Shown here one piece after another: positions 18,671-64,000 of a stretch of DNA of 64,000 nucleotides. The notes below the pieces were generated by a model. The model saw nothing but the letters and a program-made list of their open reading frames with translations, had not been told where the DNA came from and did no database searches. The stretch's first letter is position 1, and each line of letters begins with the position of its first letter. The stretch comes from Ignavibacteriota bacterium. GTDB lineage: Bacteria > Bacteroidota > Ignavibacteria > UBA10030 > UBA6906. The translations under genes and the position numbers were made by a program. The DNA is taken from positions 477,033-541,032 of the forward strand of contig CAWJKM010000003.1 in NCBI GenBank assembly GCA_963843525.1. Reading direction: 5' to 3'.

Positions 18671-18705
18671 CGCGAAATCTGCTTTCCAGGAATCCCATTG
18701 AATCG

Positions 18706-18881: not shown

Positions 18882-18916
18882 TATAATCACTTGCTTTTTC
18901 TCTCGAAAAATATAAT
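18882..18916 (+). promoter_or_regulatory. AT-rich putative promoter region with two TATAAT boxes upstream of the second T9SS paralog
   Basis: The 18745-18970 stretch is conspicuously AT-rich in a GC-rich genome. TATAAT occurs at 18882-18887 and at 18911-18916. No experimental support. Confidence 0.3.
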
Positions 18917-18971
18917 TTGTGTGAAGTCAAAAATGTTCTGTCCCTTTAAACCCCGATCTGTGGAATCCCCT

Positions 18972-22742: not shown

Positions 22743-22853
22743 TCGCCTCCCGCCCTTTCCGCTCCGAGGAGACTGTTGACGCCCGTCACAGTCTCCCACT
22801 CGCTGGAATCCTACCTTACGCGATGACTATCAGTACCTGGATGACTTCCTCTT

Positions 22854-37779: not shown

Positions 37780-37809
37780 ACTTATTATCAGATCGAACGG
37801 AATGTGACC

Positions 37810-48750: not shown

Positions 48751-49664
48751 CCGTGGCCAATGGCGATGAACCATACGGGAGGGCTGAACGGGAGGTTCCG
48801 TTCGACGGCCGGATTCTCGGGGCGATAGAGAATGCCTTGAGGGAAGACATCGGGATGGGGGATATCACCGGTGACTCCACGCTGGATGCAGACGCGCGGA
48901 CGGGCGGTGAATTCCTCGCAAAGGCTGATGGGGTCATTGCCGGCATCGAAGTGGCGGGAGCGGTCTTTCACCTCACCGATGAAGAGGTGGTGTACCGGCC
49001 TGTGGTGAGCGACGGGACGGGCGTGAAGTCCGGGACGGTGATTGCACTGGTTGAAGGGAACGCGCGAGGAATCCTGAGGGCGGAGCGGGTCGCGCTCAAT
49101 TTTCTGCAACGAATGGGCGGGATCGCGACGATGACGCGGACATACGTCGATGCGGTGCGCGGAACGAAAGCGAAAATCACGGATACGCGAAAGACCGCCC
49201 CCGGGCTCCGCGCGATCGACAAACTCGCCGTGCGCATCGGAGGCGGTGTCAATCATCGCTATGGACTCGATGATATGGTCCTGATCAAGGATAATCACAT
49301 CGTCGCCGCGGGCGGGATCACCGCGGCCGTCCATCGCTGCCAGGATTACCTTCGCGAGCACAACATCAAGGTCGGCATTGAAGTGGAAACAACCTCACTG
49401 AAAGAGGTCAGAGAGTCGCTGTCGCTCAAAGGGCTGCAGCGCATCATGCTTGACAATTTTTCTGTTGCCGCAATGCGTGAGGCGGTCCTTCTGATTGGCG
49501 GACGCGTGGAGGTGGAAGCATCGGGCGGTATTACGCTGGAGAGCGTGAAGGAGGTCGCGATGACCGGGGTGGATTTCATTTCCGTCGGCGCCATCACCCA
49601 CTCGGTTCATGCTCTTGACATCTCTCTGGAGTTCACGTCGGGAACCCATGCCCCCCATGCGTGA
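48747..49664 (+). CDS. nadC: Nicotinate-nucleotide diphosphorylase (carboxylating), quinolinate phosphoribosyltransferase
   Basis: …GDITGDST…ERVALNFLQRMGGIATMT…TRKTAPGLRAIDKLAVRIGGGVNHRYGLDDMVLIKDNHI…; the N-terminus may be slightly over-extended. Confidence 0.85.
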   Translation: MTVANGDEPYGRAEREVPFDGRILGAIENALREDIGMGDITGDSTLDADARTGGEFLAKADGVIAGIEVAGAVFHLTDEEVVYRPVVSDGTGVKSGTVIALVEGNARGILRAERVALNFLQRMGGIATMTRTYVDAVRGTKAKITDTRKTAPGLRAIDKLAVRIGGGVNHRYGLDDMVLIKDNHIVAAGGITAAVHRCQDYLREHNIKVGIEVETTSLKEVRESLSLKGLQRIMLDNFSVAAMREAVLLIGGRVEVEASGGITLESVKEVAMTGVDFISVGAITHSVHALDISLEFTSGTHAPHA

Positions 49665-51113: not shown

Positions 51114-51813
51114 TGTAGGACGGGACGCCAGTCCCGTCCCTGAGAGGGTCGGGTCAGCGACCCGACCTACAGATCGTGGGAGATGTGAGGCATTGTAGGA
51201 CGGGACGCCAGTCCCGTCCCTGAGAGGGTCGGGTCAGCGACCCGACCTACAGATCGTAGGAGATGTGAGCCACTGTAGGACGGGACGCCAGTCCCGTCCC
51301 TGAAAGGGTCGGGTGAGCGACCCGACCTACAGATCGTAGGAGATGGAGGCACTGTAGGACGGGACGCCAGTCCCGTCCCTGAGAGGGTCGGGTCAGCGAC
51401 CCGACCTACAGATCGTAGGAGATGTGAGCCATTGTAGGACGGGACGCCAGTCCCGTCCCTGAGAGGGTCAGGTCAGCGACCCGACCTACAGATCGTAGGA
51501 GATGTGAGCCACTGTAGGACGGGACGCCAGTCCCGTCGCTGAGAGGGTCGGGTCAGCGACCCGACCTACAGATCGTGGGAGATGTGAGGCATTGTAGGAC
51601 GGGACGCCAGTCCCGTCCCTGAGAGGGTCGGGTCAGCGACCCGACCTACAGATCGTAGGAGATGTGAGCCACTGTAGGACGGGACGCCAGTCCCGTCCCT
51701 GAGAGGTCGGGTCAGCGACCCGACCTACAGATCGTAGGAGATGTGAGCCATGTAGGACGGGACGCCAGTCCCGTCGCTGAGAGGGTCGGGTCAGCGACCC
51801 GACCTACAGATCG
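51114..51813. repeat. Tandem array of ~8.8 copies of an 80-bp noncoding repeat, each unit carrying two 9-bp-stem hairpins nested in a 7-bp outer stem
   Basis: Unit is TGTAGGACGGGACgccaGTCCCGTCCctgagaGGGTCGGGTCagcGACCCGACCTACAGatcgtaggagatgtgagccac. Unit starts at 51114, 51194, 51274, 51353, 51433, 51513, 51593, 51673 and 51751, a period of 78-80 bp. All frames carry stops. Only a few point variants occur between units. Confidence 0.9.
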
Positions 51814-51866
51814 AAAATAAATAGTCGGGATTAGGGATTTCACACAATAACAGACGCAGAGGATAG

Positions 51867-52898
51867 ATGTCATCGAAGGAGCAACAAAGCAACAAGGCGC
51901 TATCGTCCGACCAGATTCTGCTTGGCGGCCAGGCGGTGATAGAAGGAGTGATGATGCGGGGGCCGCAGTCGATTGCCACGGCCGTCCGACGGCGAGACGG
52001 TGTCATCGTGGTTCACAAGGAGGCGTTCATTCCTCTCACGCGGCGGTATCGTATCTGGCGATTCCCTATCCTCCGCGGGGTGGCTGGATTTTTTGAAATG
52101 ACCGTGCTCGGAATCCGGATGCTCAATTTCTCGGCAGACGTAGCGATACATGACGGGGAACCGGAGGGGGAGGAGGCGAAGGTCGGAGAGAAACACGGAA
52201 AGGGGGCGGGGGGGTGGAGCCTTGCCCTGGCCGTTCTGGTGTCGCTTACTGTCGCCGTAGGGTTATTCTTTGTAGTCCCCATTCTGCTTGCGACCACGTT
52301 GTTCAGTGTCTCCCAGGATCCCCTCGTGTTCAATTTCGCCGCGGGCTCGATACGCCTCTTAATCTTCCTCAGCTATCTTGCACTGATAGCCAGAATCCCC
52401 GACGTACGACGTCTCTTCATGTATCACGGGGCAGAACATATGACGGTGTTCGCCTTCGAGCGTGAAAAGACTGTCACGGCGGAAGCGGCGTCGCGCCAAT
52501 CGCGGTTTCATCCGCGGTGTGGAACGAGCTTCCTGCTCATAGTCGTGTTTGCATCAATCGTCCTCTTCTCTTTGGTGGATGCCGTGATCCTGTACTCCAC
52601 GGGCAGTATCACCCTTCCGCTGAGACTCCTCTGGCACCTGCTCCTCCTGCCGCTCGTGGCAGGGAGTTCCTATGAGGTGATCCGCTTCTCCGCGAGGCAT
52701 GCAGAGACTTTCCTCGGCCGTCTTATTATGAAGCCCGGACTTCTGCTTCAACGGCTGACAACCAGAGTTCCAACAGAAGACCAGCTCGAGGTGGCGGTGG
52801 CGGCACTGCAAGCCGCCCTTGAACAAACACAGGATCTTCCTGTCGCGCAGGCAGAAGCCGGGAGCGGTGAGAGCTTGCGGGTTGCGGCGCTGGGTTAA
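51867..52898 (+). CDS. DUF1385 domain-containing protein (YqhQ-like)
   Basis: …LGGQAVIEGVMMRGP… is the hallmark of DUF1385, with several internal hydrophobic segments. It sits immediately upstream of prfA, a commonly conserved arrangement. Confidence 0.7.
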   Translation: MSSKEQQSNKALSSDQILLGGQAVIEGVMMRGPQSIATAVRRRDGVIVVHKEAFIPLTRRYRIWRFPILRGVAGFFEMTVLGIRMLNFSADVAIHDGEPEGEEAKVGEKHGKGAGGWSLALAVLVSLTVAVGLFFVVPILLATTLFSVSQDPLVFNFAAGSIRLLIFLSYLALIARIPDVRRLFMYHGAEHMTVFAFEREKTVTAEAASRQSRFHPRCGTSFLLIVVFASIVLFSLVDAVILYSTGSITLPLRLLWHLLLLPLVAGSSYEVIRFSARHAETFLGRLIMKPGLLLQRLTTRVPTEDQLEVAVAALQAALEQTQDLPVAQAEAGSGESLRVAALG

Positions 52899-52928
52899 AC
52901 GACATCTTCTTGAACGTGGGCAAATATC

Positions 52929-53993
52929 ATGCTGGATAGACTTGAAAAAGTACGGGAGCGGTACGAAGAACTCACTGCACTCCTGAGCGAGCCGGGCGTC
53001 GTGGCGAATCAGGAGCGCTTCCGGAATCTGAGCAGGGAACACAGTCAGCTGACTCCGGTGATCAAGGCATACGATCGATATCGAAAGGCCAAAACCGATC
53101 TCGAGGAGACAAAGGAACTTGCGGAGAACTCTCAGGACCCCGAGCTTCGTCAGATGGCATATGGCGAGCTGGAGGGGGCGAGGGCGCGGATGGCTGAACT
53201 TGAAGAAGAATTGAAAGTTCTTCTGATCCCCAGGGATCCCAACGACAGCAGGAATGTGATCGTGGAAATCCGTGCAGGGACGGGCGGGGATGAAGCCGCG
53301 CTCTTCGGATCGGATCTCTTTAGGATGTACTCGCGCTATGCGGAAAAACGGGGGTGGAAGGTTGAAGTCCTTGATCTCTCCGATACCGGGATGGGAGGGA
53401 TCAAAGAGATTTCCTTTTCGATGATCGGTGAGGACGTCTACGGTTCCATGAAATTCGAAAGCGGTGTCCACCGCGTGCAGCGTGTTCCGGAAACGGAGGC
53501 GCAAGGCCGCGTGCATACGTCTGCCGCCACCGTCGCTGTTCTCCCGGAGGTGGAGCAGGTGGAAGTGGAGATCAATCCCGCCGATCTCATGATCGACACC
53601 TTTCGTTCGGGAGGGAAGGGCGGACAGAACGTCAACAAAGTTGAGACCGCGGTCCGGATCACGCACAAACCCTCGGGGATTGTGGTCGCCTGCCGGCAGG
53701 AGCGTTCGCAGTTCCAGAACAGGGAGCGCGCGATGAAGATGTTGCGGGCGAAGCTCTACGAATCAAAGATTGAAGCGCAAACCGGTGATGTTGCAGCACA
53801 GCGCAAGCAAATGGTGAAGAGCGGAGACAGGAGCGACAAGATCCGGACATACAATTTTCCACAAAACCGGGTGACCGATCATCGGATCGGAGTCACGCTC
53901 TACAATCTCTCTGAAATCATCGACGGTCACCTCGACGATCTTGTTGAGCAGCTCAAGATCGCTGACCGTGCGGAGAAGCTGCGGGGGGGCTGA
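52929..53993 (+). CDS. prfA: Peptide chain release factor 1
   Basis: …[12 protein letters not shown]…, a PET-like tripeptide region and …[20 protein letters not shown]… (GGQ motif); 354 aa. Confidence 0.92.
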
Positions 53994-54142
53994 CGGCACG
54001 CTCTCAGGGGAAGGGTGTTTTCTGGAGCCGTGTCGCTCTTGACGTCCGGGAAGTGAAAGCCTTGGTCTTTTTTGTGCACTCTGCTAATAGTCGCCTTTGC
54101 CAACCAACTCGCAGAAACTTGTAACTTTATTTTTTCTCCCTC

Positions 54143-54229
54143 TTGACAATTGAGACTTGCGCCTTTATCTTTATGAAAACGTTTACAGTGGGTCAACATT
54201 TTTTTTCTCTTCTTATGTAAACGTTTTCA
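54143..54229 (+). promoter_or_regulatory. Putative sigma-70-like promoter with two LacI-family operator palindromes
   Basis: TTGACA at 54143-54148 with a 17-bp spacer to TATCTT. Operator-like sites TGAAAACGTTTACA (54174-54187) and TGTAAACGTTTTCA (54216-54229) are mutually inverted. Both fit the LacI-family consensus TGnAANCGNTTnCA. They lie 28-83 bp upstream of the LacI-family gene. Confidence 0.5.
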
Positions 54230-54256
54230 TAACCTTTCAACCATCCCCAGGGTACG

Positions 54257-55267
54257 TTGAGCACCACCATCAAAGAAGTCGCCCGGCATGCCGGTGTGTC
54301 TATCGCGACGGTCTCACGCGTCTTTAACAATACCGGCCCCGTCGAAATAAATACCCGCGCGCGGGTCCGTGCCTCCGCGTTGGAATTGCGCTATGTCCCG
54401 AATGCCCTTGGTCGAAACCTGAGCCGTCGACGCACCGACGCAATTGGACTCCTGCTGCCGGACCTCTTTGGGGAATTCTTCTCGGAAGTCATTCGCGGCG
54501 CTGACGAAACGGCGCAAAGTCAGGGATACCATCTCCTGGTGTCCAGCTCGCACAGCAACCGGCAGGAGATCGAAGCTGCTCTGAAAATGATGCGGGGACG
54601 TGTCGATGCTCTCGTGATCATGTCGCCGCATATCGACGCCCAGACACTGAACGCCAACCTTCCGCGGAATCATCCCGTGGAGCTTTTGAACTGCCAGGTG
54701 GAGGACACCTCGTTCGATTCACTGAACATCGACAACTATGGCGGCGCGTACAGCATGGTGGGACACCTCATCGAACATGGACACCGGAGTATTGCCATCG
54801 TGACCGGGACACCCGGTAACATCGATGCGGAAGAGCGGCTTCGTGGCTACCGGGATGCGATGGCCCAGGGAGGTTGCCCCCTGGACGATGCTCTGGTGAT
54901 CCGCGGAGATTTTTCGGAATCATGCGGGGTACGGGCCGTGGAGCAGATCCTCGCACTCAATCCCGTCCCGACTGCGGTCTTCGCCTCCAACGATTCGATG
55001 GCGATAGGAGTTCTCGGGGCGTTCCATCACCGGGGGGTGCAAATCCCCGAACAGATGGCCCTGGCAGGGTTCGATGATGTCCCTGTCGCGTCCTTCCTCT
55101 CCCCCCCGTTGACGTCCGTCCAGGTGGGAATTCATAATCTCGGCGTGCTTGCAATCAGCCGTGCGATCGACGCGATCAAGCTCGGGGAATCGTTTCAAAC
55201 CCGACAGGCAATTCTCCCAACGACCTTGAGGCTCCGGGAATCTTGCGGTTGCCCTTCCGTCATATGA
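54257..55267 (+). CDS. LacI family transcriptional regulator
   Basis: HTH N-terminus …TIKEVARHAGVSIATVSRVFNN… followed by a periplasmic-binding-protein-like sugar-binding domain. Apparent TTG start. Confidence 0.85.
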   Translation: MSTTIKEVARHAGVSIATVSRVFNNTGPVEINTRARVRASALELRYVPNALGRNLSRRRTDAIGLLLPDLFGEFFSEVIRGADETAQSQGYHLLVSSSHSNRQEIEAALKMMRGRVDALVIMSPHIDAQTLNANLPRNHPVELLNCQVEDTSFDSLNIDNYGGAYSMVGHLIEHGHRSIAIVTGTPGNIDAEERLRGYRDAMAQGGCPLDDALVIRGDFSESCGVRAVEQILALNPVPTAVFASNDSMAIGVLGAFHHRGVQIPEQMALAGFDDVPVASFLSPPLTSVQVGIHNLGVLAISRAIDAIKLGESFQTRQAILPTTLRLRESCGCPSVI

Positions 55268-55373
55268 CGATGCCTGTGTCGTGCCCCGCTGGTTGGTGAA
55301 ACCAAGGCTGTAGTGGTGTGGTACATTCAATTCCATGCAGTGTCAATCTCATTACGTATTTATGGAGGGTTCT

Positions 55374-57245
55374 ATGAGTAATCGCAGACTATTTCTTCTC
55401 TTCGCTGTGTGCGTGGTGGCGACCACAAGCCTCTTCGCACAGTTCACACCGCGAAAGGACTACGTGTGGGCAAGGGATATCTCTGCCGCCGCAAGTCCGA
55501 CGATCACCGTTGATGGAATGCTCTCAGAAGCCGTGTGGGCGCAGGCGGAATCCGTTCTCGTCACGTACGGCGCCATCGATGGCAATCCGGGAAGTGGCTA
55601 CAAGATTACGAATGGCACCGGAACGCCGACGGACTCCACAAGGGCCGTGCTCAAGTTCCTGGTGGACAAGACCACGAACACCCTGTACATTGCGGTGATC
55701 GCCGAGGACAGCTCGATCGGCGGAGCCGGGTGGGAGAACAGCGACGGAATACTTGGCGGCATTTACGAGCGTGCGGCACGCGAACCGAATCTCGGTATCA
55801 CGCTCCAGCGCGATATTTTCATATCCTTCGTGGACTCCTCAGCGCCGAACGCCACGTTCAATTTCAAAGGCGGGAACCTCCCGAGCCGCGGAGTCATCAC
55901 GGCCGCCGGAACGATCGATGGGACGGCCAACATCGATACAAATGCATCCGGCGTTGCAACGTATGACAAGAGTTGGACCCTTGAAATGGCCGTGTCGCTG
56001 GACAGCCTCGGCTACAATGCCAACACCGCGACCACTGATGAAGTCCAAATGTGCATGGACATCTGGGATGCAGACTGGGTGCATGGTGGCAAGTCTGGTA
56101 TTGCGACCAAGGCGTGGTGGGGGAACGAGTGGGGCAATAATGGTCAGGGACTTGCAGCGCGGGTGCTCCTTCGGAACGACGTGACCGTGAATTCCGGTCC
56201 ACTGCCGTACTACCCCTACGATCTCGTGATCCCCAACGGGGCAAACTATGCGACACCAACAATTGATGGGAGCCTGCAGGATACCGTTTGGTCGAAGATT
56301 CCGGGCTTCAACATCCATTATGGGGATGCTGCTCTCCGTGCTACCTATCCCACAATTGGAAAGGACCGGAGCGGCAACTTCAAAGCGAAAGGCGCCACAG
56401 CGTTCGATGCTGGCATCGCGAAAATCAAATTCTTCTTCAAGGGCGACGTGCTCTATCTTGGCGCCGATATCGCGGATAAGTCACTCAACTCCTACGTGGG
56501 CGATGACTTCCTGGATGCAGTTCAATTGAATATCAATGTCCCGACCGACACACTCTACGACAAGAACGTCCACCAGATGGCTGGCAAAAGGTTCGGCGTC
56601 GCCATCGATTCATCGGCCAGTCATACGCGCGGTTTGTGGGATCTCACGGACTCCACCTTTGCCGCAGCGGTCACGTATGCGGCGAGCCTGAAGCCGGGCT
56701 CAACGGTCGACGACAACTCTGACGTGGACGCCGGCTATACGGTTGAAATGGCGGTGGATCTCTCGAAGCTCGGCTACCCTGCCGGCGCGCAGAACAAGGT
56801 GGTTGCCATCGGTGTCGATTATCATGACTACGACATTGCCACCGACACCTCTGCGTACCGTGTCTGGTGGTTCCGTGAATGGCCGTGGGCCGCGTCTCCC
56901 GCGTTCTGCGTGCTTGCGAATGACACACTCCTGACCGCTATCGGCAGCCAACCGACCACGACGGCGACTTCCTTCAGTCTTCTCGGCAACTATCCGAACC
57001 CGTTCAATCCGTCGACGACAATCCGCTTCAATGCCCGCGACAAAGGCACAGCGAGACTGATCGTATACGATGTTCTCGGGCAGAAAGTGCGGGAAATGAC
57101 CGCTGCGGCGACGCCGGGTCAGAATGAGGTCGTGTTCAATGCCAGTACTCTTGCAAGCGGCGTCTATTATTACCGGGTGGCATTCCAGACCGCATCGGGG
57201 ACGACGCTGACCTCAGAAGCGAAGATAATGACGCTGTTGAAGTAA
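55374..57245 (+). CDS. Secreted protein with two CBM9-like carbohydrate-binding modules and a T9SS C-terminal sorting domain
   Basis: Signal peptide MSNRRLFLLFAVCVVATTSLFAQ. Repeated …DG.L.E.VW… modules resemble CBM family 9. C-terminus …NYPNPFNPSTTIRF…IVYDVLGQKVREM…SGVYYYRV… is a T9SS tail. Confidence 0.65.
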   Translation: MSNRRLFLLFAVCVVATTSLFAQFTPRKDYVWARDISAAASPTITVDGMLSEAVWAQAESVLVTYGAIDGNPGSGYKITNGTGTPTDSTRAVLKFLVDKTTNTLYIAVIAEDSSIGGAGWENSDGILGGIYERAAREPNLGITLQRDIFISFVDSSAPNATFNFKGGNLPSRGVITAAGTIDGTANIDTNASGVATYDKSWTLEMAVSLDSLGYNANTATTDEVQMCMDIWDADWVHGGKSGIATKAWWGNEWGNNGQGLAARVLLRNDVTVNSGPLPYYPYDLVIPNGANYATPTIDGSLQDTVWSKIPGFNIHYGDAALRATYPTIGKDRSGNFKAKGATAFDAGIAKIKFFFKGDVLYLGADIADKSLNSYVGDDFLDAVQLNINVPTDTLYDKNVHQMAGKRFGVAIDSSASHTRGLWDLTDSTFAAAVTYAASLKPGSTVDDNSDVDAGYTVEMAVDLSKLGYPAGAQNKVVAIGVDYHDYDIATDTSAYRVWWFREWPWAASPAFCVLANDTLLTAIGSQPTTTATSFSLLGNYPNPFNPSTTIRFNARDKGTARLIVYDVLGQKVREMTAAATPGQNEVVFNASTLASGVYYYRVAFQTASGTTLTSEAKIMTLLK

Positions 57246-57329
57246 CCACGCTACCGTATCGACTTCCTGGCGCCTGTCCAGCTGGCAGGCGTCGGGGGGC
57301 TCGATTCCGGCTATCGGTTCCTGACATTA

Positions 57330-60005
57330 ATGATGTCCTTCATGAATCCACTCGCAGAATTGTTTCGCAGGCCCTGGCTCTCCCTCGTTGCGATCTTCGT
57401 CGTGTTCGTTGCCTCGACGTCGCCGGGGCTGGCGGATACCCGGGGGAAGCTGGCCGGGAAGGCGGTCGACCAACAGGGGAATCCGGTGGTGGGGGCGAAT
57501 ATCGTGATCGTAGGGACTCAGTTGGGAGTGACTGCGGATATCAATGGCCGCTACGTCATCCTCAATGTGCCCCCCGGCGTATACGAAGTACGCAGCAGCG
57601 CCGTCGGGTACCAGGGAAGCGCGGTGCGTGAGGTCGTGGTCAGTTCCGGCCAAACGACGACGATCAACTTCACACTAAAGGAATCCGCCATCGAGACGGC
57701 TGAAATCGTCACAGTCGCTGAGCGGCCGTTGGTGGATACACGGCAGACGAGCTCCGTGGCGATCCTTGACCGGGAGGATATTCAGGCACTCCCTGTGCAA
57801 ACCCTCGCCGATATTGTGAATCTCCAGGCGGGAGTCGTGGACGGCCATTTTCGTGGCGGTAGGGCCGGAGAGGTTCAATATCAGGTCGACGGAGTCTCCG
57901 TCAACAATCCGTACGATAACTCTTCCATCCTCCAGCTTGACAGGTCAGTTTTACAGGAGGTGCAGGTCATTAGCGGAACGTTTGACGCGGAGTACGGCCA
58001 GGCAATGAGCGGCGTCGTCAACGCTGTGCTGCGCAGTGGATCCGAAGACCACTATGCGACATCGTTGGAAGTCTATGGAGGTGCTTACGCGGCGGGCCCG
58101 GGCGGGACCGAGACGTTCCCCCACTCGTCGCCGTCATTTCCTCCTGCAATCCAGAGCTTCACGGGTTCGATCAGCGGACCTGCCGGCATTCCTCATACGT
58201 CATTCCTGCTGAACCTCCGCCGGTTCGTGGACGAAGGCTATCTCTGGGGCACGCGTCGATTCGTCCCCACGGACCAGTCGGACTATTCGCAGCGTATCTT
58301 TCTGCCCTCCGGGGACAACAATGCCACCTCGATGAGCTTTCACCATGAATGGTCAGGCCAGTTCAAGATCAGCAATCGCTCGATTCCGGAAGTCCAGCTT
58401 TCCTATCAGGCGATCGGGGCGACGATACAGAGCAAAGGGTACAATTTTGGATACAGGTTCAATCCTGACGGGAGCAGAACCCAGAAAAATCAGTCGTTTG
58501 TCCATGGTTTTGATGTTACACAGACGCTTTCAGAAAAGTCGTTCTATACGGTGAGCGTCCGTCAGAACTATTTTCACTATACGGATTACGCGTTCGCCTC
58601 CGTCGACGATCCCCACTACCAGGCGGCGGGGGCGCCGCGTGGCGACCCCAACTACGAACTCGGAGCCGTCATCCAGGGGTACGATCTCGGGCGGTTCGAA
58701 CAGAAGACGAACGCCTTCCTGGTCAAGGCCTCGTTAACGCGTCAGGTCACACCCGACCACCTGTTGAAATTTGGGGCAGAGGGGGAATCATCGTTGATCT
58801 CGTTTGGCTCGCCCGGCACGCTGACTTCGGAAATCACCGGTCCGACTCAATCGCGCGTGTACGAGCTTCCCGATTCGCTCTCGCAAAATACGCGAACATT
58901 CTACCCGCGAGCCTTCGCGGTGTATGCGCAGGACCGCATGGAAGTGGCCGATATCCTTGTGCGTGCCGGGGTGCGATTTGAATACTACGATGCAAATTCG
59001 CAGATCCCCGGGGACCTCGCAAATCCAGCCAACACCATTGCCGGAGCCCCCGCTCCGCCGCCGAAAAGGACAACGAAGAAATATGCGCTGGCTCCACGCC
59101 TCGGCGTTTCGTATCCCATCACCGCAACCGGCGCGCTTTATTTTTCCTATGGCCATTTCTATCAAATGCCCGGACTTGGGAATCTCTACTCGAATTCGGA
59201 TTACTACATCCTCCGCAACCTTCAGTCGGGGAGCACATCCTACGGCGTAATGGGAAACCCCGACATCAAACCGGAGTTCACGACCCAATACGAGTTCGGC
59301 TTCAAAGAGCAGTTTGGGGGTTTCCTCGGTGTCGACCTCTCGACTTTCTACAAGGACATCCGGGATCTTCTGGGCGTGGAGTTCATCGATACGTATGCCG
59401 ATTCACGGTACGCGAGATTTACGAATGTGGATTTCGGGTCGGTGGTCGGATTCAAACTCTCAATCGATCAGCGGTTCACCCCATCGTTTCTTGTGTCTGT
59501 GGATTACACCTATCAGAACGCGGTTGGCAACTCGAGCGACCCGCGTGAGACGGCGGATCGTGCCGCCGCGGGTCAAGATTCGCGCCCGCGCGAAGAACCG
59601 TTCGACTGGGATCAGCGGCATACGCTCAATATTGCCGCCACATATGCGATCGAAGGGGACTTCAGCGTGACCGCAATTCTGCGGTACGGCAGCGGAAGCC
59701 CGTACACACCATCCATCGGGTCAGGATACGGTGCATCGCTGGAACGGAATTCCTCCTCCAAACCGGCATGGGTGGACGTCGATCTGCGCGCTGAGAAGTC
59801 ATTCTCCTACGGCCCGGTGACCTTGAATGCATTCTTCCGGGTCGTCAACCTCTTCGATGCCCGCTACGAAAACGGATTTGTCTTCAGCACAACCGGAACC
59901 CCATACTCTTCGTTGACTCCTCAATCCGATGCCGGACAGCTCCTCGATCCGTCCCGATTCGCTGCCCCTCGAAGGATTGAACTTGGCCTCGGCGTAACGC
60001 TGTAG
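57330..60005 (+). CDS. TonB-dependent outer-membrane receptor with N-terminal carboxypeptidase-regulatory-like domain
   Basis: Signal peptide, then …GKAVDQQGNPVVGANIVIVGTQLGVTADINGRYVILNVPPGVYEV… (CarbopepD_reg-like domain). Plug region …LDREDIQALPVQTLADIVNLQAGV… and a long beta-barrel. The C-terminus lacks the usual terminal aromatic residue, which lowers confidence. Confidence 0.65.
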   Translation: MMSFMNPLAELFRRPWLSLVAIFVVFVASTSPGLADTRGKLAGKAVDQQGNPVVGANIVIVGTQLGVTADINGRYVILNVPPGVYEVRSSAVGYQGSAVREVVVSSGQTTTINFTLKESAIETAEIVTVAERPLVDTRQTSSVAILDREDIQALPVQTLADIVNLQAGVVDGHFRGGRAGEVQYQVDGVSVNNPYDNSSILQLDRSVLQEVQVISGTFDAEYGQAMSGVVNAVLRSGSEDHYATSLEVYGGAYAAGPGGTETFPHSSPSFPPAIQSFTGSISGPAGIPHTSFLLNLRRFVDEGYLWGTRRFVPTDQSDYSQRIFLPSGDNNATSMSFHHEWSGQFKISNRSIPEVQLSYQAIGATIQSKGYNFGYRFNPDGSRTQKNQSFVHGFDVTQTLSEKSFYTVSVRQNYFHYTDYAFASVDDPHYQAAGAPRGDPNYELGAVIQGYDLGRFEQKTNAFLVKASLTRQVTPDHLLKFGAEGESSLISFGSPGTLTSEITGPTQSRVYELPDSLSQNTRTFYPRAFAVYAQDRMEVADILVRAGVRFEYYDANSQIPGDLANPANTIAGAPAPPPKRTTKKYALAPRLGVSYPITATGALYFSYGHFYQMPGLGNLYSNSDYYILRNLQSGSTSYGVMGNPDIKPEFTTQYEFGFKEQFGGFLGVDLSTFYKDIRDLLGVEFIDTYADSRYARFTNVDFGSVVGFKLSIDQRFTPSFLVSVDYTYQNAVGNSSDPRETADRAAAGQDSRPREEPFDWDQRHTLNIAATYAIEGDFSVTAILRYGSGSPYTPSIGSGYGASLERNSSSKPAWVDVDLRAEKSFSYGPVTLNAFFRVVNLFDARYENGFVFSTTGTPYSSLTPQSDAGQLLDPSRFAAPRRIELGLGVTL

Positions 60006-60017
60006 GAAGGTAAAGGC

Positions 60018-63000
60018 ATGGCGACACGAACTTTCATTTCTGCAATGCTGGTGATGATCTGTGCAACGGCGGCCGCACAACTTCCCCTGGCTCCGGTGGT
60101 CCCCAAGGATCAGCGTGGACGGAACGATGCAGAACGCTCCGGTACCCATGACGCCGGCAACATCCGCACGATTTTCTATAATTACGGGATGGTGGGGGAC
60201 TATCCCTCCGATCCGATCAACGTCGATCTCTCGATCTTTCATTCGGCGGAGGTGCCGAAGGGATCGGGGATGAACTACACGGACGGAATCACGCCATTCG
60301 TCCTCGCCGGCATCCGCGACGCGAGAGGCGACTCCGTGTTTATCATGGAAACGGGCTTTCGCGAACGGCAGGAACCCAGTCCCGTTACTGGAAAAACCAT
60401 GAGGTTCGAGCCGCGACCGGGTTTCTTTCGGGCCGACCCGACGATCAATGTCGGACGATCTGTTGCGATCAGCAACGATCCTCGAACCTGGCCCGACTCA
60501 TGGCCTGACAAACTCTCGGATTCGACTGACCCGGGATGGGCAGGAAGTTGGAACGGATACTTCGGGAAGCGTCCGAATGCAGACCAGGAAAGTTTCTCGG
60601 TCATGGATGATGACTATTACGACAAATGGAATTTCTCTCCCGATACGCGTGACGCGACGCGCCGAGGTCTCGGCCTCCGGGTCGAAGTCCGCGGTTTTCA
60701 GTGGGCGAACCCTCAAGCAACCAACGTGATCTTCTGGCACTACGACATCACGAACGAATCGACCACCGACTACGCTGATGACATCATTTTCGGGCTCTAC
60801 ATGGACTCCGGCGTGGGAGGCTCCGCATATTCCTGTGATGGCGTGGCGGAGTCCGACGATGACAACGCCTTTTTCGAGCGATCACCCGGATTGAACCTCA
60901 CCTATACGTGGGATAAATATGGTCACGGAGTCGATCTGCAAAGCGCCTGTGCACCGACTGGCTATCTTGGCTATGCCTACCTTGAAACCCCGGGGAATCC
61001 CTATGACCAGGTCGATAACGATGACGATGGGATTACCAACGAGAGGCGGGATAGCGGACCCGGACAATTCATCGTCGGGCAGGAAAACATCCGGGCCTAC
61101 GTTCAAGCTCACTACAATATGACCAACTTCGAAGCATTCTACGGAAAGCTTGAGAACCGTCCCGCGTTCAAGGCTGGTCGGTGGTGGACTGGAGACGAGG
61201 ACATGGACTGGGTCGCGGACTACGATGATGTCGGCGCAGACGGAGTAGCAGGAACCCATGATGCCGGCGAAGGCGACGGCATCCCGACCGACGGCGAGCC
61301 GGATTTCGACAGCAGGGACAAAGATGAATCGGATCAGATCGGTCTGACCGGGTTCAAAATGAACAGGATCAAAGGGCCTTCCAAGAACGATCCCGTGGAC
61401 GATATCGTCTTCTATGGTCTGTGGCCGCCGAAACTGTACAATCAGTTTACGGATCCGGTCGAGGCAAATCGGTATGACTCGCCCGTTGTCTTGAACTACA
61501 ACATCGCTTTTCTTTTCGCCTCAGGCACCTTCCGTCTTCCGGCCGGAGCGCATGAACGTTTCAGTCTGGCACTGGCGTACGGAGCCGATTTGAACGAACT
61601 CAGGACGCAGGTGAAGACTGTGCAACAGATCTACAACGCTAACTACCAGTTCGCCGTGCCGCCGCCTGCGCCAGTCGTGAATGCTGAGGCCGGCGATCAC
61701 TATGTGCGACTCACGTGGTCCGATTTCTCCGAACGGGCCATCAATCCCATAACACGGAACAATGAGTTCGAAGGGTATCGGATCTACCGCTCGACCGATC
61801 CCGAGTTCCGCGATCCCAAAGTCATTACGAATGCAAAGGGAACCGGGCCATTCGGCAATGGGAAACCTATCGCGCAGTTTGATCTGAAGAACGGCATCTA
61901 CGGATTCTCCAAGCAACAGATAGAAGGAGTGGCATACGATCTGGGGAACGACACGGGACTCATGCACTCCTATACCGACAGCCTGGTGAATAACGGCCAG
62001 GATTACTACTATGCTGTTTGTGCGTATGACCATGGCTCCGACTCGCTCGGGTTCTTCCCTTCGGAGAATTCCATTGCCGTGTCGCGAACGCTCCGGGGGG
62101 GGACAATCCTGCCCACAAATGTCGTTCTTGCACGGCCGGAGCCTTCAGTGCCCGGGTTCACGGCAGCGCGCACCGACAACGTCCGCCATACGGCAGGACC
62201 GGGGACAGCAGCAGTCCAACTCAAAGTCCTCGAGTCCCAGAAGGTTCCGGACGGCAAGACGGTCCAGATCAAATTTGATACGGACAACCCCGGCCACATT
62301 CACGCGGTGCGGTACCGCATGGTCGACAGCTCCAGCGGAAAAGACATCTTCAGCTTTGGTGCGGATTTCCACGGAGAAGGACGTGGACCGGTAGGACTAG
62401 GCATTCTTCCGATTATCAGCACTCCGGATTCCACATACGCGGACAGCGCGAGGACAGGTTTTGAGGCGGGCAGCCACGTTACGCTCGGGCTGCTAGTAAC
62501 GAACAAGGATCGAGACTCGATCGACATCCGTCGCCCCGGATATCCCGCCGATTTTTCCATTACATTTTCGCACGACGTTCTCGACACAAGCCTTCTGTCC
62601 ATAGTCAGTGACGCGGTCCCGGTCAAATTCCGTATCACGGCGCAGACTTCCAGCGGGACAATGAGGCTGCCGTTCTATTTTCACGACGCGAACGGCGACA
62701 GCACAATGAGTGTGTTCGGTGATTTTATCGATATTGTCACGTACACGCCGGGGAGCAGGCAGGCAAGAGTCACGTGGCGCGTCGAAGTCGATACGTCCGG
62801 TCAGTCTTCACGCGGGCCTCTGGTGTTGCCGACAGACGGTGATGTCTTCTCCGTCGGATTGGCAATCCCCGTCAGTTACGATGACGTCTTCAGTTACGTT
62901 ACCACAGGGCAATCCGTGTCAACAGGCCTTGCGAGGAGTCAATACGTGAACGGACCCTACGTTGTGCCGAATCCTTACGTCGGAGCAGCGAGTTTTGAAC

Positions 63001-63257
63001 CCGAACGATTCGCGATTACGGGACGGGGCGACCGGAGGATGGAATTCCGGAATTTGCCGGTGGGAGCCACCGTGCACATCCTTTCAGTTCGCGGAGACCT
63101 TGTGCAGACCCTGCACCAGGACGGATCGACAAGCGGGACGGTACCTTGGGATCTCAGGACCAAGGACAATCTTGATGTCGCGCCCGGATTGTATATCTAC
63201 CAGGTGGAGGCTCCGGGCTTCACAGCATTCATCGGAAAGTTTGCCATCATCAAATAG
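60018..63257 (+). CDS. Large secreted protein with Asp-rich calcium-binding repeats and a probable T9SS-type C-terminal domain
   Basis: Signal peptide MATRTFISAMLVMICATAAAQ. DNDDDGITNERRD and DYDDVGADG…DGIPTDGEPDFDSRDKDESD resemble thrombospondin-type-3-like Ca-binding motifs. C-terminal ~90 aa (…VPNPYVGAASF…LYIYQVEAPGFTAFIGKFAIIK) resembles T9SS / FlgD-Ig-like sorting tails. Function unknown. Confidence 0.55.
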   Translation: MATRTFISAMLVMICATAAAQLPLAPVVPKDQRGRNDAERSGTHDAGNIRTIFYNYGMVGDYPSDPINVDLSIFHSAEVPKGSGMNYTDGITPFVLAGIRDARGDSVFIMETGFRERQEPSPVTGKTMRFEPRPGFFRADPTINVGRSVAISNDPRTWPDSWPDKLSDSTDPGWAGSWNGYFGKRPNADQESFSVMDDDYYDKWNFSPDTRDATRRGLGLRVEVRGFQWANPQATNVIFWHYDITNESTTDYADDIIFGLYMDSGVGGSAYSCDGVAESDDDNAFFERSPGLNLTYTWDKYGHGVDLQSACAPTGYLGYAYLETPGNPYDQVDNDDDGITNERRDSGPGQFIVGQENIRAYVQAHYNMTNFEAFYGKLENRPAFKAGRWWTGDEDMDWVADYDDVGADGVAGTHDAGEGDGIPTDGEPDFDSRDKDESDQIGLTGFKMNRIKGPSKNDPVDDIVFYGLWPPKLYNQFTDPVEANRYDSPVVLNYNIAFLFASGTFRLPAGAHERFSLALAYGADLNELRTQVKTVQQIYNANYQFAVPPPAPVVNAEAGDHYVRLTWSDFSERAINPITRNNEFEGYRIYRSTDPEFRDPKVITNAKGTGPFGNGKPIAQFDLKNGIYGFSKQQIEGVAYDLGNDTGLMHSYTDSLVNNGQDYYYAVCAYDHGSDSLGFFPSENSIAVSRTLRGGTILPTNVVLARPEPSVPGFTAARTDNVRHTAGPGTAAVQLKVLESQKVPDGKTVQIKFDTDNPGHIHAVRYRMVDSSSGKDIFSFGADFHGEGRGPVGLGILPIISTPDSTYADSARTGFEAGSHVTLGLLVTNKDRDSIDIRRPGYPADFSITFSHDVLDTSLLSIVSDAVPVKFRITAQTSSGTMRLPFYFHDANGDSTMSVFGDFIDIVTYTPGSRQARVTWRVEVDTSGQSSRGPLVLPTDGDVFSVGLAIPVSYDDVFSYVTTGQSVSTGLARSQYVNGPYVVPNPYVGAASFEPERFAITGRGDRRMEFRNLPVGATVHILSVRGDLVQTLHQDGSTSGTVPWDLRTKDNLDVAPGLYIYQVEAPGFTAFIGKFAIIK

Positions 63258-63259
63258 CC

Positions 63260-64000
63260 ATGGGAAAACGTATTATGCATGGTCCTCAGTGCAAGAGCCC
63301 GTCGGTGCGTCATGTCCGGCTCGGGCTTGTCGTTGCTCTCTGGGCGACGTTGCTGACCCCATTGAAGGGTGACCTCCTGGCGCAAACGAAGACGGGGACG
63401 ACCATCGGACAATTCACGCTCATCGATCCGAGCGCGAGAAGTGCCGCCATGGGTGGTGCAGGGGTGACCTCCTCAACTGAAGCATTTGCTTCCTTCTATA
63501 ACCCCGGTGCCCTGGGTGCATTGACGTCCACCGACCTTCAGTTTTCTTACAATGCATGGTTCGCGGGAATCAACCTAAACTACGCCGCCGCCGCATTTTC
63601 TCTGGGAAGTTGGGGGAATACGTCTGTCATGGTGACCAGTCTGAATTCAGGAGACATCAACGTCACCACCGTGGAACAACCTCTCGGCACCGGGGAAAAG
63701 TATTCGGTCAATGACCTTCTCATTGGTTTAGGGTATGGAATAAGGATCAGCGATCGATTTACCTGCGGGCTCCAGGTCAACTATGTGAGCGAAAGAATCT
63801 GGCATAGCAGTATTTCTACCTTTGGATTCAATATCGGGACGCTGTATCAACTCTCCCCCAATGGCCTTCGGATTGGTGCCAGTCTCACCAATTTTGGATT
63901 CAAGGGGCGCTTCGACGGCACCGACATTCGAATACGCTACGATATCGATCCGACGCGCTATGGGGACAACAGCAGCGTCCCGGGAGAAATCCTTACGGAT
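63260..64000 (+). CDS. PorV/PorQ-family outer-membrane beta-barrel protein (T9SS-associated), 3' end beyond the window
   Basis: Own translation of the frame opening at ATG 63260: signal peptide, then …GTTIGQFTLIDPSARSAAMGGAGVTSSTEAFASFYNPGAL…. This matches the conserved PorV-family N-terminal motif (G-T-x-x-x-x-F-L-x-I-x-x-x-A-R-x-x-A-M-G-G-A…NPAGL). The frame is open to the window end. Confidence 0.55.
   Translation, partial: MGKRIMHGPQCKSPSVRHVRLGLVVALWATLLTPLKGDLLAQTKTGTTIGQFTLIDPSARSAAMGGAGVTSSTEAFASFYNPGALGALTSTDLQFSYNAWFAGINLNYAAAAFSLGSWGNTSVMVTSLNSGDINVTTVEQPLGTGEKYSVNDLLIGLGYGIRISDRFTCGLQVNYVSERIWHSSISTFGFNIGTLYQLSPNGLRIGASLTNFGFKGRFDGTDIRIRYDIDPTRYGDNSSVPGEILTD

What the first reader, a model, noticed from the sequence alone, without database searches (positions are those of the whole stretch)
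54257..64000. LacI-controlled locus pairing T9SS-secreted CBM9-like protein, TonB-dependent receptor, giant Ca-binding T9SS-type protein and PorV-like OMP
Downstream of prfA the gene order is: LacI-family repressor, secreted CBM9-like protein with T9SS tail, TonB-dependent receptor with CarbopepD_reg domain, a 1079-aa Asp-rich Ca-binding protein with a T9SS-like tail, then a PorV/PorQ-family beta-barrel. This resembles a polysaccharide-utilisation-type module (sensor/regulator, binder, TonB-dependent importer), but it has no SusD and uses T9SS cargo instead of lipoproteins. The adjacent PorV-like shuttle suggests a dedicated export partner for the large cargo.
Basis: partly seen in the sequence, partly recalled or inferred. 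Interest (0 to 1): 0.55.

Follow-up and report, generated by a model that had tools for sequence, protein, structure and literature searches.

The report
Glucan uptake locus with uncharacterised partners
This is the front half of a repressor-controlled gene cluster for harvesting beta-1,2-glucan, in which an outer-membrane importer is always paired with a large, highly conserved but unannotated surface protein and a PorV-like barrel; the same four-gene module recurs for other polysaccharides in many phyla related to Bacteroidota, apparently in the role that SusC/SusD plays in Bacteroides.

Summary
The genes are as described: a LacI regulator, a T9SS-tailed CBM9-like protein, a TonB-dependent receptor (TBDR), a 1079-aa protein and a truncated PorV/PorQ-family barrel. 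A 98.9%-identical contig continues with GH94 and GH144, so this is a beta-1,2-glucan utilisation locus.

The gene order is kept in about 80 species-representative genomes (Ignavibacteria, Eisenbacteria, KSB1, Calditrichia, Gemmatimonadetes, Fibrobacteraceae and others). The 1079-aa protein is not a variable cargo. It is the best-conserved gene of the locus (57-83% identity across phyla), has no Pfam or NCBIfam family, and is named "hypothetical" wherever a source names it.

It belongs to a very large family (about 3000 clusters at 50% identity). In every paralog context I examined, the gene sits between a TBDR and a PorV-like barrel, next to mannan, laminarin-type or beta-1,2-glucan enzymes.

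AlphaFold gives a beta-supersandwich like the N-domains of GH94/GH15/GH65, then Fn3, Ig-like domains and a diverged T9SS C-terminal domain (CTD).

Best reading: a SusD-free, T9SS-displayed glycan-capture and import cassette. The big protein is held on its cognate PorV-like barrel, as PorZ is held on PorQ. This is inferred, not shown.

The parts
54143..54171 (+). sigma-70-like promoter (TTGACA, 17 nt spacer, TATCTT) directly upstream of operator 1
   Evidence: Consensus scan, 10 of 12 matches. The total number of promoter-like sites in the region is no higher than in shuffles, so this is weak evidence on its own.
54174..54187 (.). LacI-family operator 1, TGAAAACGTTTACA
   Evidence: One of only two matches in the 64-kb window (0.01 expected). 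The same motif lies 40-130 nt upstream of lacI in most related loci across phyla.
54216..54229 (.). LacI-family operator 2, TGTAAACGTTTTCA (reverse complement of operator 1)
54257..55267 (+). LacI-family transcriptional repressor (336 aa), probably autoregulated first gene of the operon
   Evidence: Pfam LacI, Peripla_BP_1 and Peripla_BP_3. Below every NCBIfam equivalog cut-off, so the effector is unknown. Conserved at this position in 45/53 loci.
55374..57245 (+). Secreted protein of 623 aa (the ORF opens at 55335) with a type A T9SS C-terminal domain and a weak CBM9-like region; candidate surface glycan-binding protein
   Evidence: Por_Secre_tail E 2.3e-9; CBM9_1 E 4e-4, below cut-off. The annotated start 55374 comes from the conspecific contig. 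Present upstream of the TBDR in 57/57 loci.
57249..57316 (+). Strong RNA hairpin between the first gene and the TBDR gene (possible leaky terminator or mRNA stabiliser)
   Evidence: dG -40 kcal/mol, z -3.5. A hairpin at this position is conserved in 37/49 related loci at z <= -2, against 2/49 in coding controls.
57330..60005 (+). TonB-dependent receptor (887-891 aa) with an N-terminal CarboxypepD_reg domain, plug and barrel; not SusC/RagA class
   Evidence: TIGR04056 scores 55 bits against a cut-off of 368 and matches only the N-terminal extension. No close solved homolog. Immediately upstream of the big gene in 60/61 loci.
60018..63257 (+). 1079-aa conserved protein of an unannotated family. 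Layout: signal peptide (res 1-21), beta-supersandwich with DxDxDG loops (22-548), Fn3 (549-695), two poorly conserved Ig-like domains (696-975), diverged T9SS-type CTD (976-1079)
   Evidence: Homologs. No Pfam or PDB sequence match. Structure models. Foldseek. CTD. Conservation by region. The gene starts 12 nt after the TBDR stop.
63260..64000 (+). PorV/PorQ-family outer-membrane beta-barrel, first 246 of 356 codons (cut by the window end); starts 2 nt after the stop of the big gene
   Evidence: NF033709 scores 127 bits against a cut-off of 90, and the protein is below the PorV, PorQ and PorV2 equivalog cut-offs. Full length seen in L092. Downstream of the big gene in 69/72 loci.

Best explanation
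The region is the regulatory and outer-membrane half of a beta-1,2-glucan utilisation operon. The enzyme half, GH94 phosphorylase and GH144 endo-beta-1,2-glucanase, lies just beyond the window end.

Proposed mechanism:
1. A LacI-family repressor binds two TGWAAACGTTTWCA operators that overlap or follow its own promoter. It is presumably released by a sophoro-oligosaccharide.
2. The operon then makes a four-gene cassette:
   - a T9SS-secreted surface protein with a type A CTD (CBM9-like; glycan binding or capture);
   - a TonB-dependent transporter;
   - a ~1080-aa protein exported by the T9SS, whose diverged CTD is not removed but docks it on
   - the cognate PorV/PorQ-like barrel encoded 2 nt downstream, the way PorZ is held by PorQ and PorU by PorV.
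3. The big protein's beta-supersandwich is the fold of the non-catalytic N-domains of GH94/GH15/GH65/GH116/GH149. Its variable Ig-like domains, together with that domain, would bind the glycan at the cell surface and hand it to the transporter. It would thus do what SusD and the surface glycan-binding proteins do for SusC, without being related to them.
4. Oligosaccharides are then cut by periplasmic GH144 and phosphorolysed by GH94.

What is shown:
- the gene content and the operators;
- the conservation of the cassette;
- its reuse next to other CAZyme sets;
- the predicted folds;
- the CTD relationship.

What is inferred:
- the physical complex and retention of the CTD;
- glycan binding;
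- the inducer.
For: Beta-1,2-glucan assignment:
- The conspecific contig L092 (98.9% nt identity over 12.4 kb) continues PorV-like, GH94, GH144.
- The GH144 is closest to XcSGL/XCC2207 (E 4.6e-100), which acts only on beta-1,2-glucan (PMC12102758).
- GH144 is present in 33/33 and GH94 in 31/33 fully flanked loci.
- The Ignavibacterium album cluster of the same kind was proposed for beta-1,2-glucan use (PMC8861115).

Cassette:
- TBDR, big gene and PorV-like gene are adjacent in 60/61 and 69/72 loci.
- The cassette is found next to GH130/GH5, GH16/GH3/GH5, GH26/GH16 and a second lineage of GH94/GH144.
- The three proteins co-diverge (Spearman 0.55-0.71).
- Intergenic gaps of 12 and 2 nt suggest coupled expression.

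Big protein:
- 57-83% identity across phyla, higher than the TBDR.
- The family has 3084 clusters at 50% identity.
- N-domain model pLDDT 90.5, pTM 0.90. Foldseek hits with probability about 1 to GH15-like, GH94, GH149, GH116, GH161 and GH65 enzymes, but TMq only 0.28-0.35, and the model has too little helix for their (alpha/alpha)6 catalytic domain.
- The CTD is the region best conserved between paralogs (0.45, against 0.18-0.23 for the Ig-like region), as expected for a substrate-independent docking or secretion module.
- The CTD is related to type A CTDs and weakly to the PorZ and PorU CTDs.

Precedent: the PorZ and PorU CTDs are retained and bind PorQ and PorV, and cognate PorV-like barrels have been proposed to protect CTDs from cleavage (PMC10202324).

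Operators.
Against: - There is no experimental or multimer-modelling evidence that the three proteins touch each other.
- The big protein's CTD misses the Pfam and TIGR type A models entirely. One paralog weakly hits the type B model, so the secretion route is assumed.
- The presence of T9SS core genes in this genome could not be checked.
- The very high conservation could also fit an enzyme.
- A strong hairpin separates the first gene from the TBDR gene. No operator precedes the TBDR gene, so co-regulation of the downstream genes needs read-through.
- Some of these taxa also own true SusC/SusD pairs (PMC3534657, PMC6987092), so the cassette is not simply a replacement forced by the absence of SusD.
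Confidence: 0.55

Rival explanations
1. The 1079-aa protein is a surface enzyme of a new family (a glycanase, transglycosylase or lyase acting on the polymer before import) rather than a binding or lid component. The PorV-like barrel merely anchors it.
For: - Conservation is very high, with many invariant acidic residues.
- The N-domain resembles domains found only in carbohydrate-active enzymes.
- The family is Pfam-dark, so an unrecognised catalytic site is possible.
Against: - The model has no (alpha/alpha)6 or other recognisable catalytic domain.
- Most residues invariant across paralogs are Gly, Pro, Trp and the Asp/Glu of DxDxDG loops.
- The same scaffold accompanies loci for chemically different glycans, each of which already encodes its own T9SS-tailed endo-enzyme.
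Confidence: 0.15
2. The big protein and the PorV-like barrel are a locus-specific T9SS attachment or sorting module, a PorZ/PorQ-like pair. They process or display the T9SS-tailed binding protein and enzymes of the same locus and have no direct role in import through the TBDR.
For: - Every cassette is accompanied by one or more proteins with a type A CTD.
- PorZ was the top Foldseek hit of the full-length model.
- There are weak PorZ and PorU CTD matches.
- The barrel scores higher against PorQ than against PorV.
Against: - The PorZ match has TM about 0.1 and rests on a low-confidence model.
- The tightest linkage of the big gene is to the TBDR (60/61 loci, 12-nt gap; big versus TBDR Spearman 0.71, the highest of the three pairs).
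- A generic attachment job would not require a separate paralog for each glycan.
Confidence: 0.15
3. The big protein is ordinary secreted T9SS cargo (an adhesin or S-layer-like protein), and its neighbourhood has no functional meaning.
For: It has a signal peptide, Fn3 and Ig-like domains and a CTD-like tail, as many adhesins do.
Against: Near-universal synteny across phyla and across paralog groups, co-divergence with its neighbours, and higher conservation than the transporter.
Confidence: 0.03

Closest known systems
SusC/SusD-type polysaccharide utilisation loci (PULs) of Bacteroidota
   Same: - A regulator, surface glycan-binding proteins, a TonB-dependent importer with an N-terminal CarboxypepD_reg-like extension, and substrate-specific CAZymes in one co-regulated locus.
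- The transport core is duplicated and diversified for each glycan.
   Different: - There is no SusD gene.
- The TBDR is not SusC/RagA class (55 bits against a cut-off of 368).
- The accessory proteins are Sec/T9SS-type proteins with CTDs, not lipoproteins.
- A PorV-like barrel is an obligatory third member.
- The big protein is all-beta, whereas SusD is a helical TPR-like protein (own knowledge).
PorZ-PorQ and PorU-PorV pairs of the T9SS attachment complex (Porphyromonas gingivalis)
   Same: A surface protein whose T9SS CTD is retained and serves to dock it on a cognate PorV/PorQ-family 14-strand barrel (PMC10202324). The barrel here belongs to family NF033709, and the CTD of the big protein weakly matches the PorZ and PorU CTDs.
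   Different: - The barrel is below the PorQ and PorV equivalog cut-offs.
- The partner protein has a different architecture.
- The pair is encoded in carbohydrate loci next to a TBDR and exists in many paralogous copies.
- CTD retention is not shown here.
SprB-SprF and other type B CTD proteins with an adjacent PorP/SprF-like gene (Flavobacterium johnsoniae)
   Same: A large T9SS substrate is encoded next to its own dedicated PorV-like barrel gene, which is needed for that substrate only (PMC10202324, and own knowledge).
   Different: - The barrel here is PorV/PorQ family, not PorP/SprF.
- The CTD is nearer to type A.
- The context is nutrient uptake, not gliding.
Ignavibacterium album SGL (beta-1,2-glucanase) gene cluster, IALB_1177-1187 (Kobayashi et al. 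2022, PMC8861115)
   Same: - The same kind of locus in a cultured relative: GH94 related to the Cgs phosphorylase domain, two GH144 genes, and a TonB-dependent transporter proposed to import sophoro-oligosaccharides.
- An I. album MAG carries an ortholog of the big gene (L054, 58% identity).
   Different: - That paper's main text mentions the TBDR only in passing ('no biochemical evidence') and does not discuss the big protein or the PorV-like gene.
- The cluster also holds GH35 IaSGT and an ABC transporter, which are not seen in the part available here.
Rhodothermus marinus xylan locus, Rmar_1067-1073 (PMC6987092, Table 1)
   Same: The listed order is LacI, CTD-bearing GH43-CBM6 and Xyn10A, TonB-dependent receptor, 'hypothetical protein' with a Por CTD, then 'hypothetical protein'. 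This has the same layout as the cassette.
   Different: - Homology of Rmar_1071 and Rmar_1072 to the big protein and the PorV-like barrel is inferred from the table only. I could not fetch those sequences.
- That locus also contains a canonical SusC/SusD pair.
BamG-BamH of the Bacteroidota BAM complex (PMC12578637)
   Same: A FadL/PorV-like 14-strand barrel whose extracellular loops hold a large surface-exposed partner as a permanent complex rather than shuttling it.
   Different: The machine is unrelated (outer-membrane protein assembly), BamH is a lipoprotein, and there are only very weak BamG matches here (E 2e-4 to 3e-3).

Membership tests
LacI/GalR family repressor | N-terminal LacI-type HTH plus a periplasmic-binding-protein-like effector domain | tested here: met
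   PF00356 E 1.4e-15; PF13377 E 2.9e-35; PF00532 E 9e-28.
LacI/GalR family repressor | Palindromic operator with a central CG near the regulated promoter | tested here: met
   Two TGWAAACGTTTWCA sites at 54174 and 54216 against 0.01 expected. The motif is conserved upstream of lacI across phyla. Binding itself was not tested.
T9SS type A CTD cargo (first gene, 55374-57245) | C-terminal PF18962/TIGR04183 domain above the curated cut-off, plus a signal peptide | tested here: met
   PF18962 scores 37.8 bits against 27; TIGR04183 scores 36.5 against 23. An N-terminal hydrophobic signal is visible in the sequence.
CBM9 (first gene) | PF06452 match above the gathering score | tested here: not met
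   20.7 bits against a cut-off of 23.4, E 4e-4. Only 'faint' in the orthologs, but significant in first genes of paralogous cassettes.
TonB-dependent receptor | Plug domain followed by a 22-strand-type barrel domain | tested here: met
   PF07715 scores 30.9 bits against 23.9; PF00593 scores 115.9 against 27.
SusC/RagA TonB-linked outer membrane protein | TIGR04056 above its cut-off over the full length | tested here: not met
   55.2 bits against a cut-off of 368, matching only model positions 2-117, the N-terminal extension.
Canonical PUL (SusC/SusD pair) | An adjacent susD-family gene | tested here: not met
   No SusD-family Pfam domain on any gene of the 11 distinct annotated neighbourhoods.
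T9SS CTD protein (1079-aa protein) | A recognisable CTD: 7-strand beta-sandwich at the extreme C-terminus, related to type A or type B models | tested here: inconclusive
   - No PF18962 or PF13585 hit for this protein.
- hhalign against neighbouring type A CTDs: probability 93.8%, E 1.7e-7.
- PorZ and PorU CTD matches at E 1.5e-3 and 8.6e-3.
- Confident C-terminal beta-sandwich in the AF2 model.
- One of 18 paralogs hits CHU_C at E 1.6e-4.
T9SS CTD protein (1079-aa protein) | Secretion depends on the T9SS; fate of the CTD (cleaved or retained) | not testable with these tools
   Needs genetics and proteomics. The T9SS core genes of this genome are outside the window.
PorV/PorQ family barrel | NF033709 above its cut-off | tested here: met
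   127 bits for the truncated window copy and 180-231 bits for full-length orthologs and paralogs, against a cut-off of 90. The only PDB sequence hit is F. johnsoniae PorV, E 3e-3.
Housekeeping PorV or PorQ (equivalogs) | NF033710 at 250 bits or more, or NF033711 at 220 bits or more | tested here: not met
   PorV 54-92 bits; PorQ 76-106 bits.
Beta-1,2-glucan utilisation gene cluster | GH144 endo-beta-1,2-glucanase and a GH94 phosphorylase of the Cgs/SOGP type in the same locus | tested here: met
   Present in the conspecific contig L092 directly after the PorV-like gene and in 31-33 of 33 related loci. Enzyme specificity is inferred from homology.
Ca-binding DxDxDG-loop protein | Conserved DxDxDG motifs; bound Ca2+ | tested here: inconclusive
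   The motifs are present and invariant (D333, D335, D337, G338, E342 and D404, G406, D408, G409). There is no Pfam TSP_3 or EF-hand match, and metal binding cannot be tested here.

The most novel reading that the evidence does not exclude
The three-gene core (TBDR, ~1,050-1,100-aa supersandwich/Fn3/CTD protein, PorV/PorQ-like barrel), preceded in every locus by a T9SS-tailed protein that varies between paralogous loci, is a widespread and so far undescribed outer-membrane glycan-import machine. It occurs in the relatives of Bacteroidota: Ignavibacteria, Rhodothermia, Balneolia, Calditrichia, KSB1, Eisenbacteria, Gemmatimonadetes, Fibrobacteres, Marinimicrobia, Latescibacteria and Zhuqueibacterota. 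In this reading a T9SS-delivered protein is held permanently by a PorV-like barrel and does the job of SusD for a non-SusC transporter. That would be a second, independent solution to surface glycan capture, and a non-secretory use of the PorV fold.
Probability: 0.45. Interest if true: 0.85.

Novelty: new variant of a known kind. Interest (0 to 1): 0.7.

Why it matters
- TonB-dependent glycan import is understood structurally almost only for SusC/SusD in Bacteroidia.
- Many environmentally dominant polysaccharide degraders of soils, sediments, hot springs and the ocean belong to sister phyla, whose loci are annotated as 'TonB-dependent receptor plus hypothetical proteins'.
- The evidence here ties a family of about 3000 sequence clusters, with no Pfam, NCBIfam or PDB sequence match, to a defined genomic role. 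It also predicts the family's partners and gives cultured organisms in which to test it: Ignavibacterium album, Melioribacter, Rhodothermaceae.
- The cassette would be a marker for finding PUL-like loci outside Bacteroidia, where PUL predictors keyed on susC/susD pairs will not detect SusD-free loci of this kind.
- It would extend the role of PorV-like barrels from secretion shuttles to fixed anchors of nutrient-uptake complexes.
- The beta-1,2-glucan specificity matters because uptake systems for this bacterial glucan are essentially uncharacterised.

Tried and rejected
1. The exact-sequence look-up of P0001 (the 1070-aa gene call of the window protein) found nothing. The 1079-aa form did find a contig.
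2. AF2 on the full-length protein with 45 close orthologs gave a poor N-terminal half (pLDDT 30-75). Its Foldseek hits were uninformative Fn3 strings with TM about 0.1, PorZ on top. I re-modelled residues 22-548 with a 132-sequence alignment spanning paralogs.
4. I asked whether the window holds a second cassette at 15767-24056 (967 aa, 1297 aa, 400 aa). It does not. Those are two GH123_N/CBM_4_9 T9SS-tailed proteins and an acetyltransferase, and the only similarity to the big protein is CTD to CTD at E 0.6.
5. The only two motif matches in the window are upstream of lacI.
6. Literature searches for the cassette found no description of it. I searched PorV-like barrels in PULs, SusD-less loci in Ignavibacteria, Gemmatimonadetes and Rhodothermus, PorV together with the candidate phyla, and the Rmar_107x locus tags. 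The cassette appears only as unannotated 'hypothetical proteins' in one R. marinus table.
7. A simple longest-perfect-stem count understated the intergenic hairpin. Folding energy against dinucleotide shuffles was the better test.

Full report
**1. What is in the window**

On the + strand, downstream of prfA (52929-53993; TIGR00019), lie five genes.

- A LacI-family regulator at 54257-55267.
- A secreted protein at 55335/55374-57245.
- A TonB-dependent receptor at 57330-60005.
- A 1079-aa ORF at 60018-63257.
- A gene starting at 63260 that runs off the window end.

Pfam and NCBIfam scans give the following.

- The regulator has the LacI HTH and the Peripla_BP domains.
- The first gene has a type A T9SS tail (PF18962, E 2.3e-9). 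Its CBM9_1 match is sub-threshold (20.7 bits against 23.4).
- The receptor has CarboxypepD_reg, Plug and the TBDR barrel. It is not SusC/RagA class: TIGR04056 scores 55 bits against a cut-off of 368 and covers only the N-terminal extension.
- The last gene is a PorV/PorQ-family barrel (NF033709, 127 bits against 90). It is below the equivalog cut-offs for PorV, PorQ and PorV2.
- The 1079-aa protein matches nothing in Pfam even at E 10 and nothing meaningful in the PDB by sequence.

The intergenic gaps are 12 nt (TBDR to big gene) and 2 nt (big gene to PorV-like gene).

**2. The locus is for beta-1,2-glucan**

The exact protein is encoded on a 16.7-kb contig of a conspecific MAG (GCA_049587695.1). 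That contig is 98.9% identical to the window over 12.4 kb. There the PorV-like gene is complete (356 aa) and is followed by a GH94 gene and a PF10091 (GH144) gene.

- The GH144 is closest to XcSGL/XCC2207 (E 4.6e-100), then to BDI_3064 and the Chitinophaga endo-beta-1,2-glucanase.
- XcSGL acts only on beta-1,2-glucan (PMC12102758).

**3. Synteny**

A scan of one genome per species returned 80 loci encoding orthologs of the big protein. The record titles name Ignavibacteria, Ca. Eisenbacteria, Calditrichia, KSB1, Gemmatimonadetes, Fibrobacteraceae, Krumholzibacteriia, Zhuqueibacterota, Rhodothermales and several 'Bacteroidota' MAGs.

Where the contig is long enough, the neighbours are as follows.

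| Neighbour of the big gene | Loci with it / loci evaluable |
|---|---|
| TBDR immediately upstream | 60/61 |
| PorV-like gene immediately downstream | 69/72 |
| CBM9-like gene upstream | 57/57 |
| LacI gene upstream | 45/53 |
| GH144 within 10 kb | 33/33 |
| GH94 within 10 kb | 31/33 |

Pfam-annotated neighbourhoods from four lineages show the same order. The PorV-like gene is therefore not a stray housekeeping porV.

**4. The 1079-aa protein is a conserved component, not a variable cargo**

- More than 2000 homologs of about 1085 aa were found. Every one to which a source gives a name is called 'hypothetical protein', none has a Pfam domain, and the 120 best listed are 60-83% identical to the query across the phyla named.
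- In the 80 loci it is the most conserved gene: 56-83% identity, against 45-82% for the TBDR, 40-78% for the barrel and 27-85% for the first gene.
- A search of 1.8 billion 50%-identity representatives gave 3084 related clusters at E <= 1e-3 and 497 at E <= 1e-30. Most are proteins of 1000-1600 aa with 34-44% identity.
- Many of these align over the full length with each other at 30-47% identity. This is a large family with many subfamilies.

**5. The cassette is reused for other glycans**

I looked at the neighbourhoods of six paralogs.

| Paralog and source | Gene order around the big gene |
|---|---|
| P0318, Rhodothermaceae bacterium RA | LacI, CTD protein, TBDR, big, PorV-like, ABC transporter, GH130 |
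| P0288, Marinimicrobia | As above, plus GH5 |
| P0441, Ignavibacterium sp. | CBM9_1+CTD, TBDR, big, PorV-like, GH16+CTD, GH3, GH5/CBM6+CTD |
| P0459, Melioribacteraceae | As for P0441 |
| P0411 | LacI, an unannotated 507-aa gene, CBM9_1+CTD, TBDR, big, PorV-like, GH26, GH16 |
| P0126 | LacI, CTD protein, TBDR, big, PorV-like, ABC transporter, GH94, GH144; another PorV-like gene ends just upstream |

- In six of six cases the T9SS-tailed protein, TBDR, big protein and PorV-like barrel stay together while the enzymes change.
- The three core proteins co-diverge. Between cassettes, identities are TBDR 31-36%, big 36-41% and barrel 16-32%. Pairwise-identity matrices correlate at Spearman 0.55-0.71. 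This indicates duplication and divergence of the cassette as a unit.
- The published table of the Rhodothermus marinus xylan locus lists the same layout with 'hypothetical proteins' after the TBDR, one of them with a Por CTD (PMC6987092). I could not test that homology directly.

**6. Structure of the big protein**

- The full-length model from close orthologs was good only for residues 550-1079. That half shows Fn3, further beta-sandwich domains and a C-terminal beta-sandwich.
- Residues 22-548, modelled with a 132-sequence alignment spanning three paralog groups, reached pLDDT 90.5 and pTM 0.90.
- Foldseek against the PDB returned only carbohydrate-active enzymes of the GH15-like, GH94, GH149, GH116, GH161 and GH65 type. 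Probability was about 1, but TMq was 0.28-0.35. Together with the mostly-beta secondary structure, this points to their non-catalytic N-terminal beta-supersandwich. There is no (alpha/alpha)6 catalytic barrel.
- DxDxDG loops and a helical insert decorate the domain, and their Asp and Gly residues are invariant.
- The C-terminal 105 residues are related to the type A CTDs of the neighbouring genes (hhalign probability 93.8%, E 1.7e-7) and weakly to the CTDs of PorZ and PorU. They carry an invariant insertion, FEPERF...GRGxRRxEF.

Conservation by region, as the fraction of aligned sequences that share the window protein's residue, averaged over the region:

| Region | Among orthologs | Among paralogs |
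|---|---|---|
| N-domain | 0.70-0.76 | 0.30-0.41 |
| Fn3 | 0.70 | 0.43 |
| Ig-like region, 696-975 | 0.44 | 0.18-0.23 |
| CTD | 0.70 | 0.45 |

The CTD is the best-conserved region among paralogs. That pattern fits a constant docking or secretion module and a variable, possibly specificity-determining, middle.

**7. Regulation**

- The 14-mer TGWAAACGTTTWCA occurs exactly twice in the 64-kb window, at 54174 and 54216, against 0.01 expected. The first site directly follows a TTGACA-17-TATCTT promoter-like site.
- The same motif (TGTAAnCGnTTACA) lies 40-130 nt upstream of lacI in most related loci in several phyla. Of 103 hits, 65 fall within 250 nt upstream of lacI.
- Where lacI is elsewhere, the motif precedes the first cassette gene (for example L050, L057, L068).
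- The operon is thus probably autoregulated from a promoter in front of lacI. There is no operator before 55374 or 57330.

**8. Mechanism proposed**

See the best explanation. The precedent for CTD-mediated docking on a cognate PorV-family barrel is PorZ-PorQ and PorU-PorV (PMC10202324). A PorV-like barrel that permanently holds a surface partner is also seen in BamG-BamH (PMC12578637). The physical complex, CTD retention, glycan binding and the inducer are all inferred.

**9. Caveats**

- Taxon names are those of the deposited MAG records.
- Some taxa with the cassette also have true SusC/SusD pairs (M. roseus, PMC3534657; R. marinus). The cassette is therefore an alternative, not simply a substitute.
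- The T9SS core genes of this organism could not be checked.
- The searchable literature excludes most subscription journals, so a prior description cannot be ruled out.

**10. Verdict**

The comparative data sharpen it in four ways:

- the substrate can be named;
- the operators are located;
- the 'giant cargo' turns out to be the signature protein of a very large, unannotated family;
- that family, with a TBDR and a PorV-like barrel, forms a modular SusD-free glycan-uptake cassette across the FCB-group phyla.

Noticed in passing
window 57249-57316; the same position in L002, L005, L012, L022, L052, L063, L070, L091 and others: A very stable hairpin sits right after the stop codon of the first (CBM9-like) gene and before the TBDR gene (dG -40 kcal/mol, z -3.5). 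The sequence is not conserved but the position is. The first 90 nt after that stop fold at z <= -2 in 37/49 related and paralogous loci (median z -3.1), against 2/49 for coding controls. Some low-GC loci add a T-tail. It may be a leaky terminator or an mRNA-stabilising element that sets the ratio of the first gene to the transporter genes.
   Followed up: partly
window 1-51100: Most of the rest of the window looks like an exopolysaccharide or capsule biosynthesis cluster. The scanned ORFs gave a Wzx-like flippase (Polysacc_synt_3, 8199-9974), GT2 and GT4 glycosyltransferases, a GNAT, UDP-glucose dehydrogenase (25458-26762), Poly_export/SLBB (29831-31528), asparagine synthase (37804-39702), a GT2 ORF with a partial C-terminal sugar-transferase match (45102-47096) and an HfsF-like protein (49609-51108).
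   Followed up: partly
window 15767-18670 and 18849-22742: Two tandem large secreted proteins (967 and 1297 aa) carry GH123 N-terminal-like and CBM_4_9 domains and type A T9SS tails, embedded in the polysaccharide-biosynthesis cluster. They are not related to the 1079-aa protein beyond the CTD.
   Followed up: partly
L090:1-4040: Directly upstream of one paralogous cassette, another PorV-like gene ends and a 1179-aa T9SS-tailed protein follows. Cassettes can therefore lie in tandem in one genome.
   Followed up: no
L023:20020, L060:20084, L063:20040, L070:19949 (about 16 kb downstream of lacI); L008:593/656, L061:387/440, L026:3177 (1-3.5 kb upstream of lacI): Additional copies of the LacI operator motif lie elsewhere in the extended loci of several Eisenbacteria and Ignavibacteria. 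This suggests that the regulon includes a second transcription unit. I did not identify the genes they precede.
   Followed up: no
window 63003-63050 (residues 996-1011 of the big protein): The CTD of the big-protein family carries an insertion, FEPERF..GRGxRRxEF, that type A CTDs lack and that is nearly invariant even between paralogs at 30-40% identity. It is a candidate contact with the PorV-like barrel.
   Followed up: partly
L092 against window 51574-64000: A second MAG assembly (GCA_049587695.1) carries the same locus with 138 differences in 12,427 nt. NCBI names the big protein 'hypothetical protein WB699_12910 [Bacteroidota bacterium]' (MGA9120256.1). The closest species-level relative is an Ignavibacteriota MAG (L047, 83% amino-acid identity).
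   Followed up: yes
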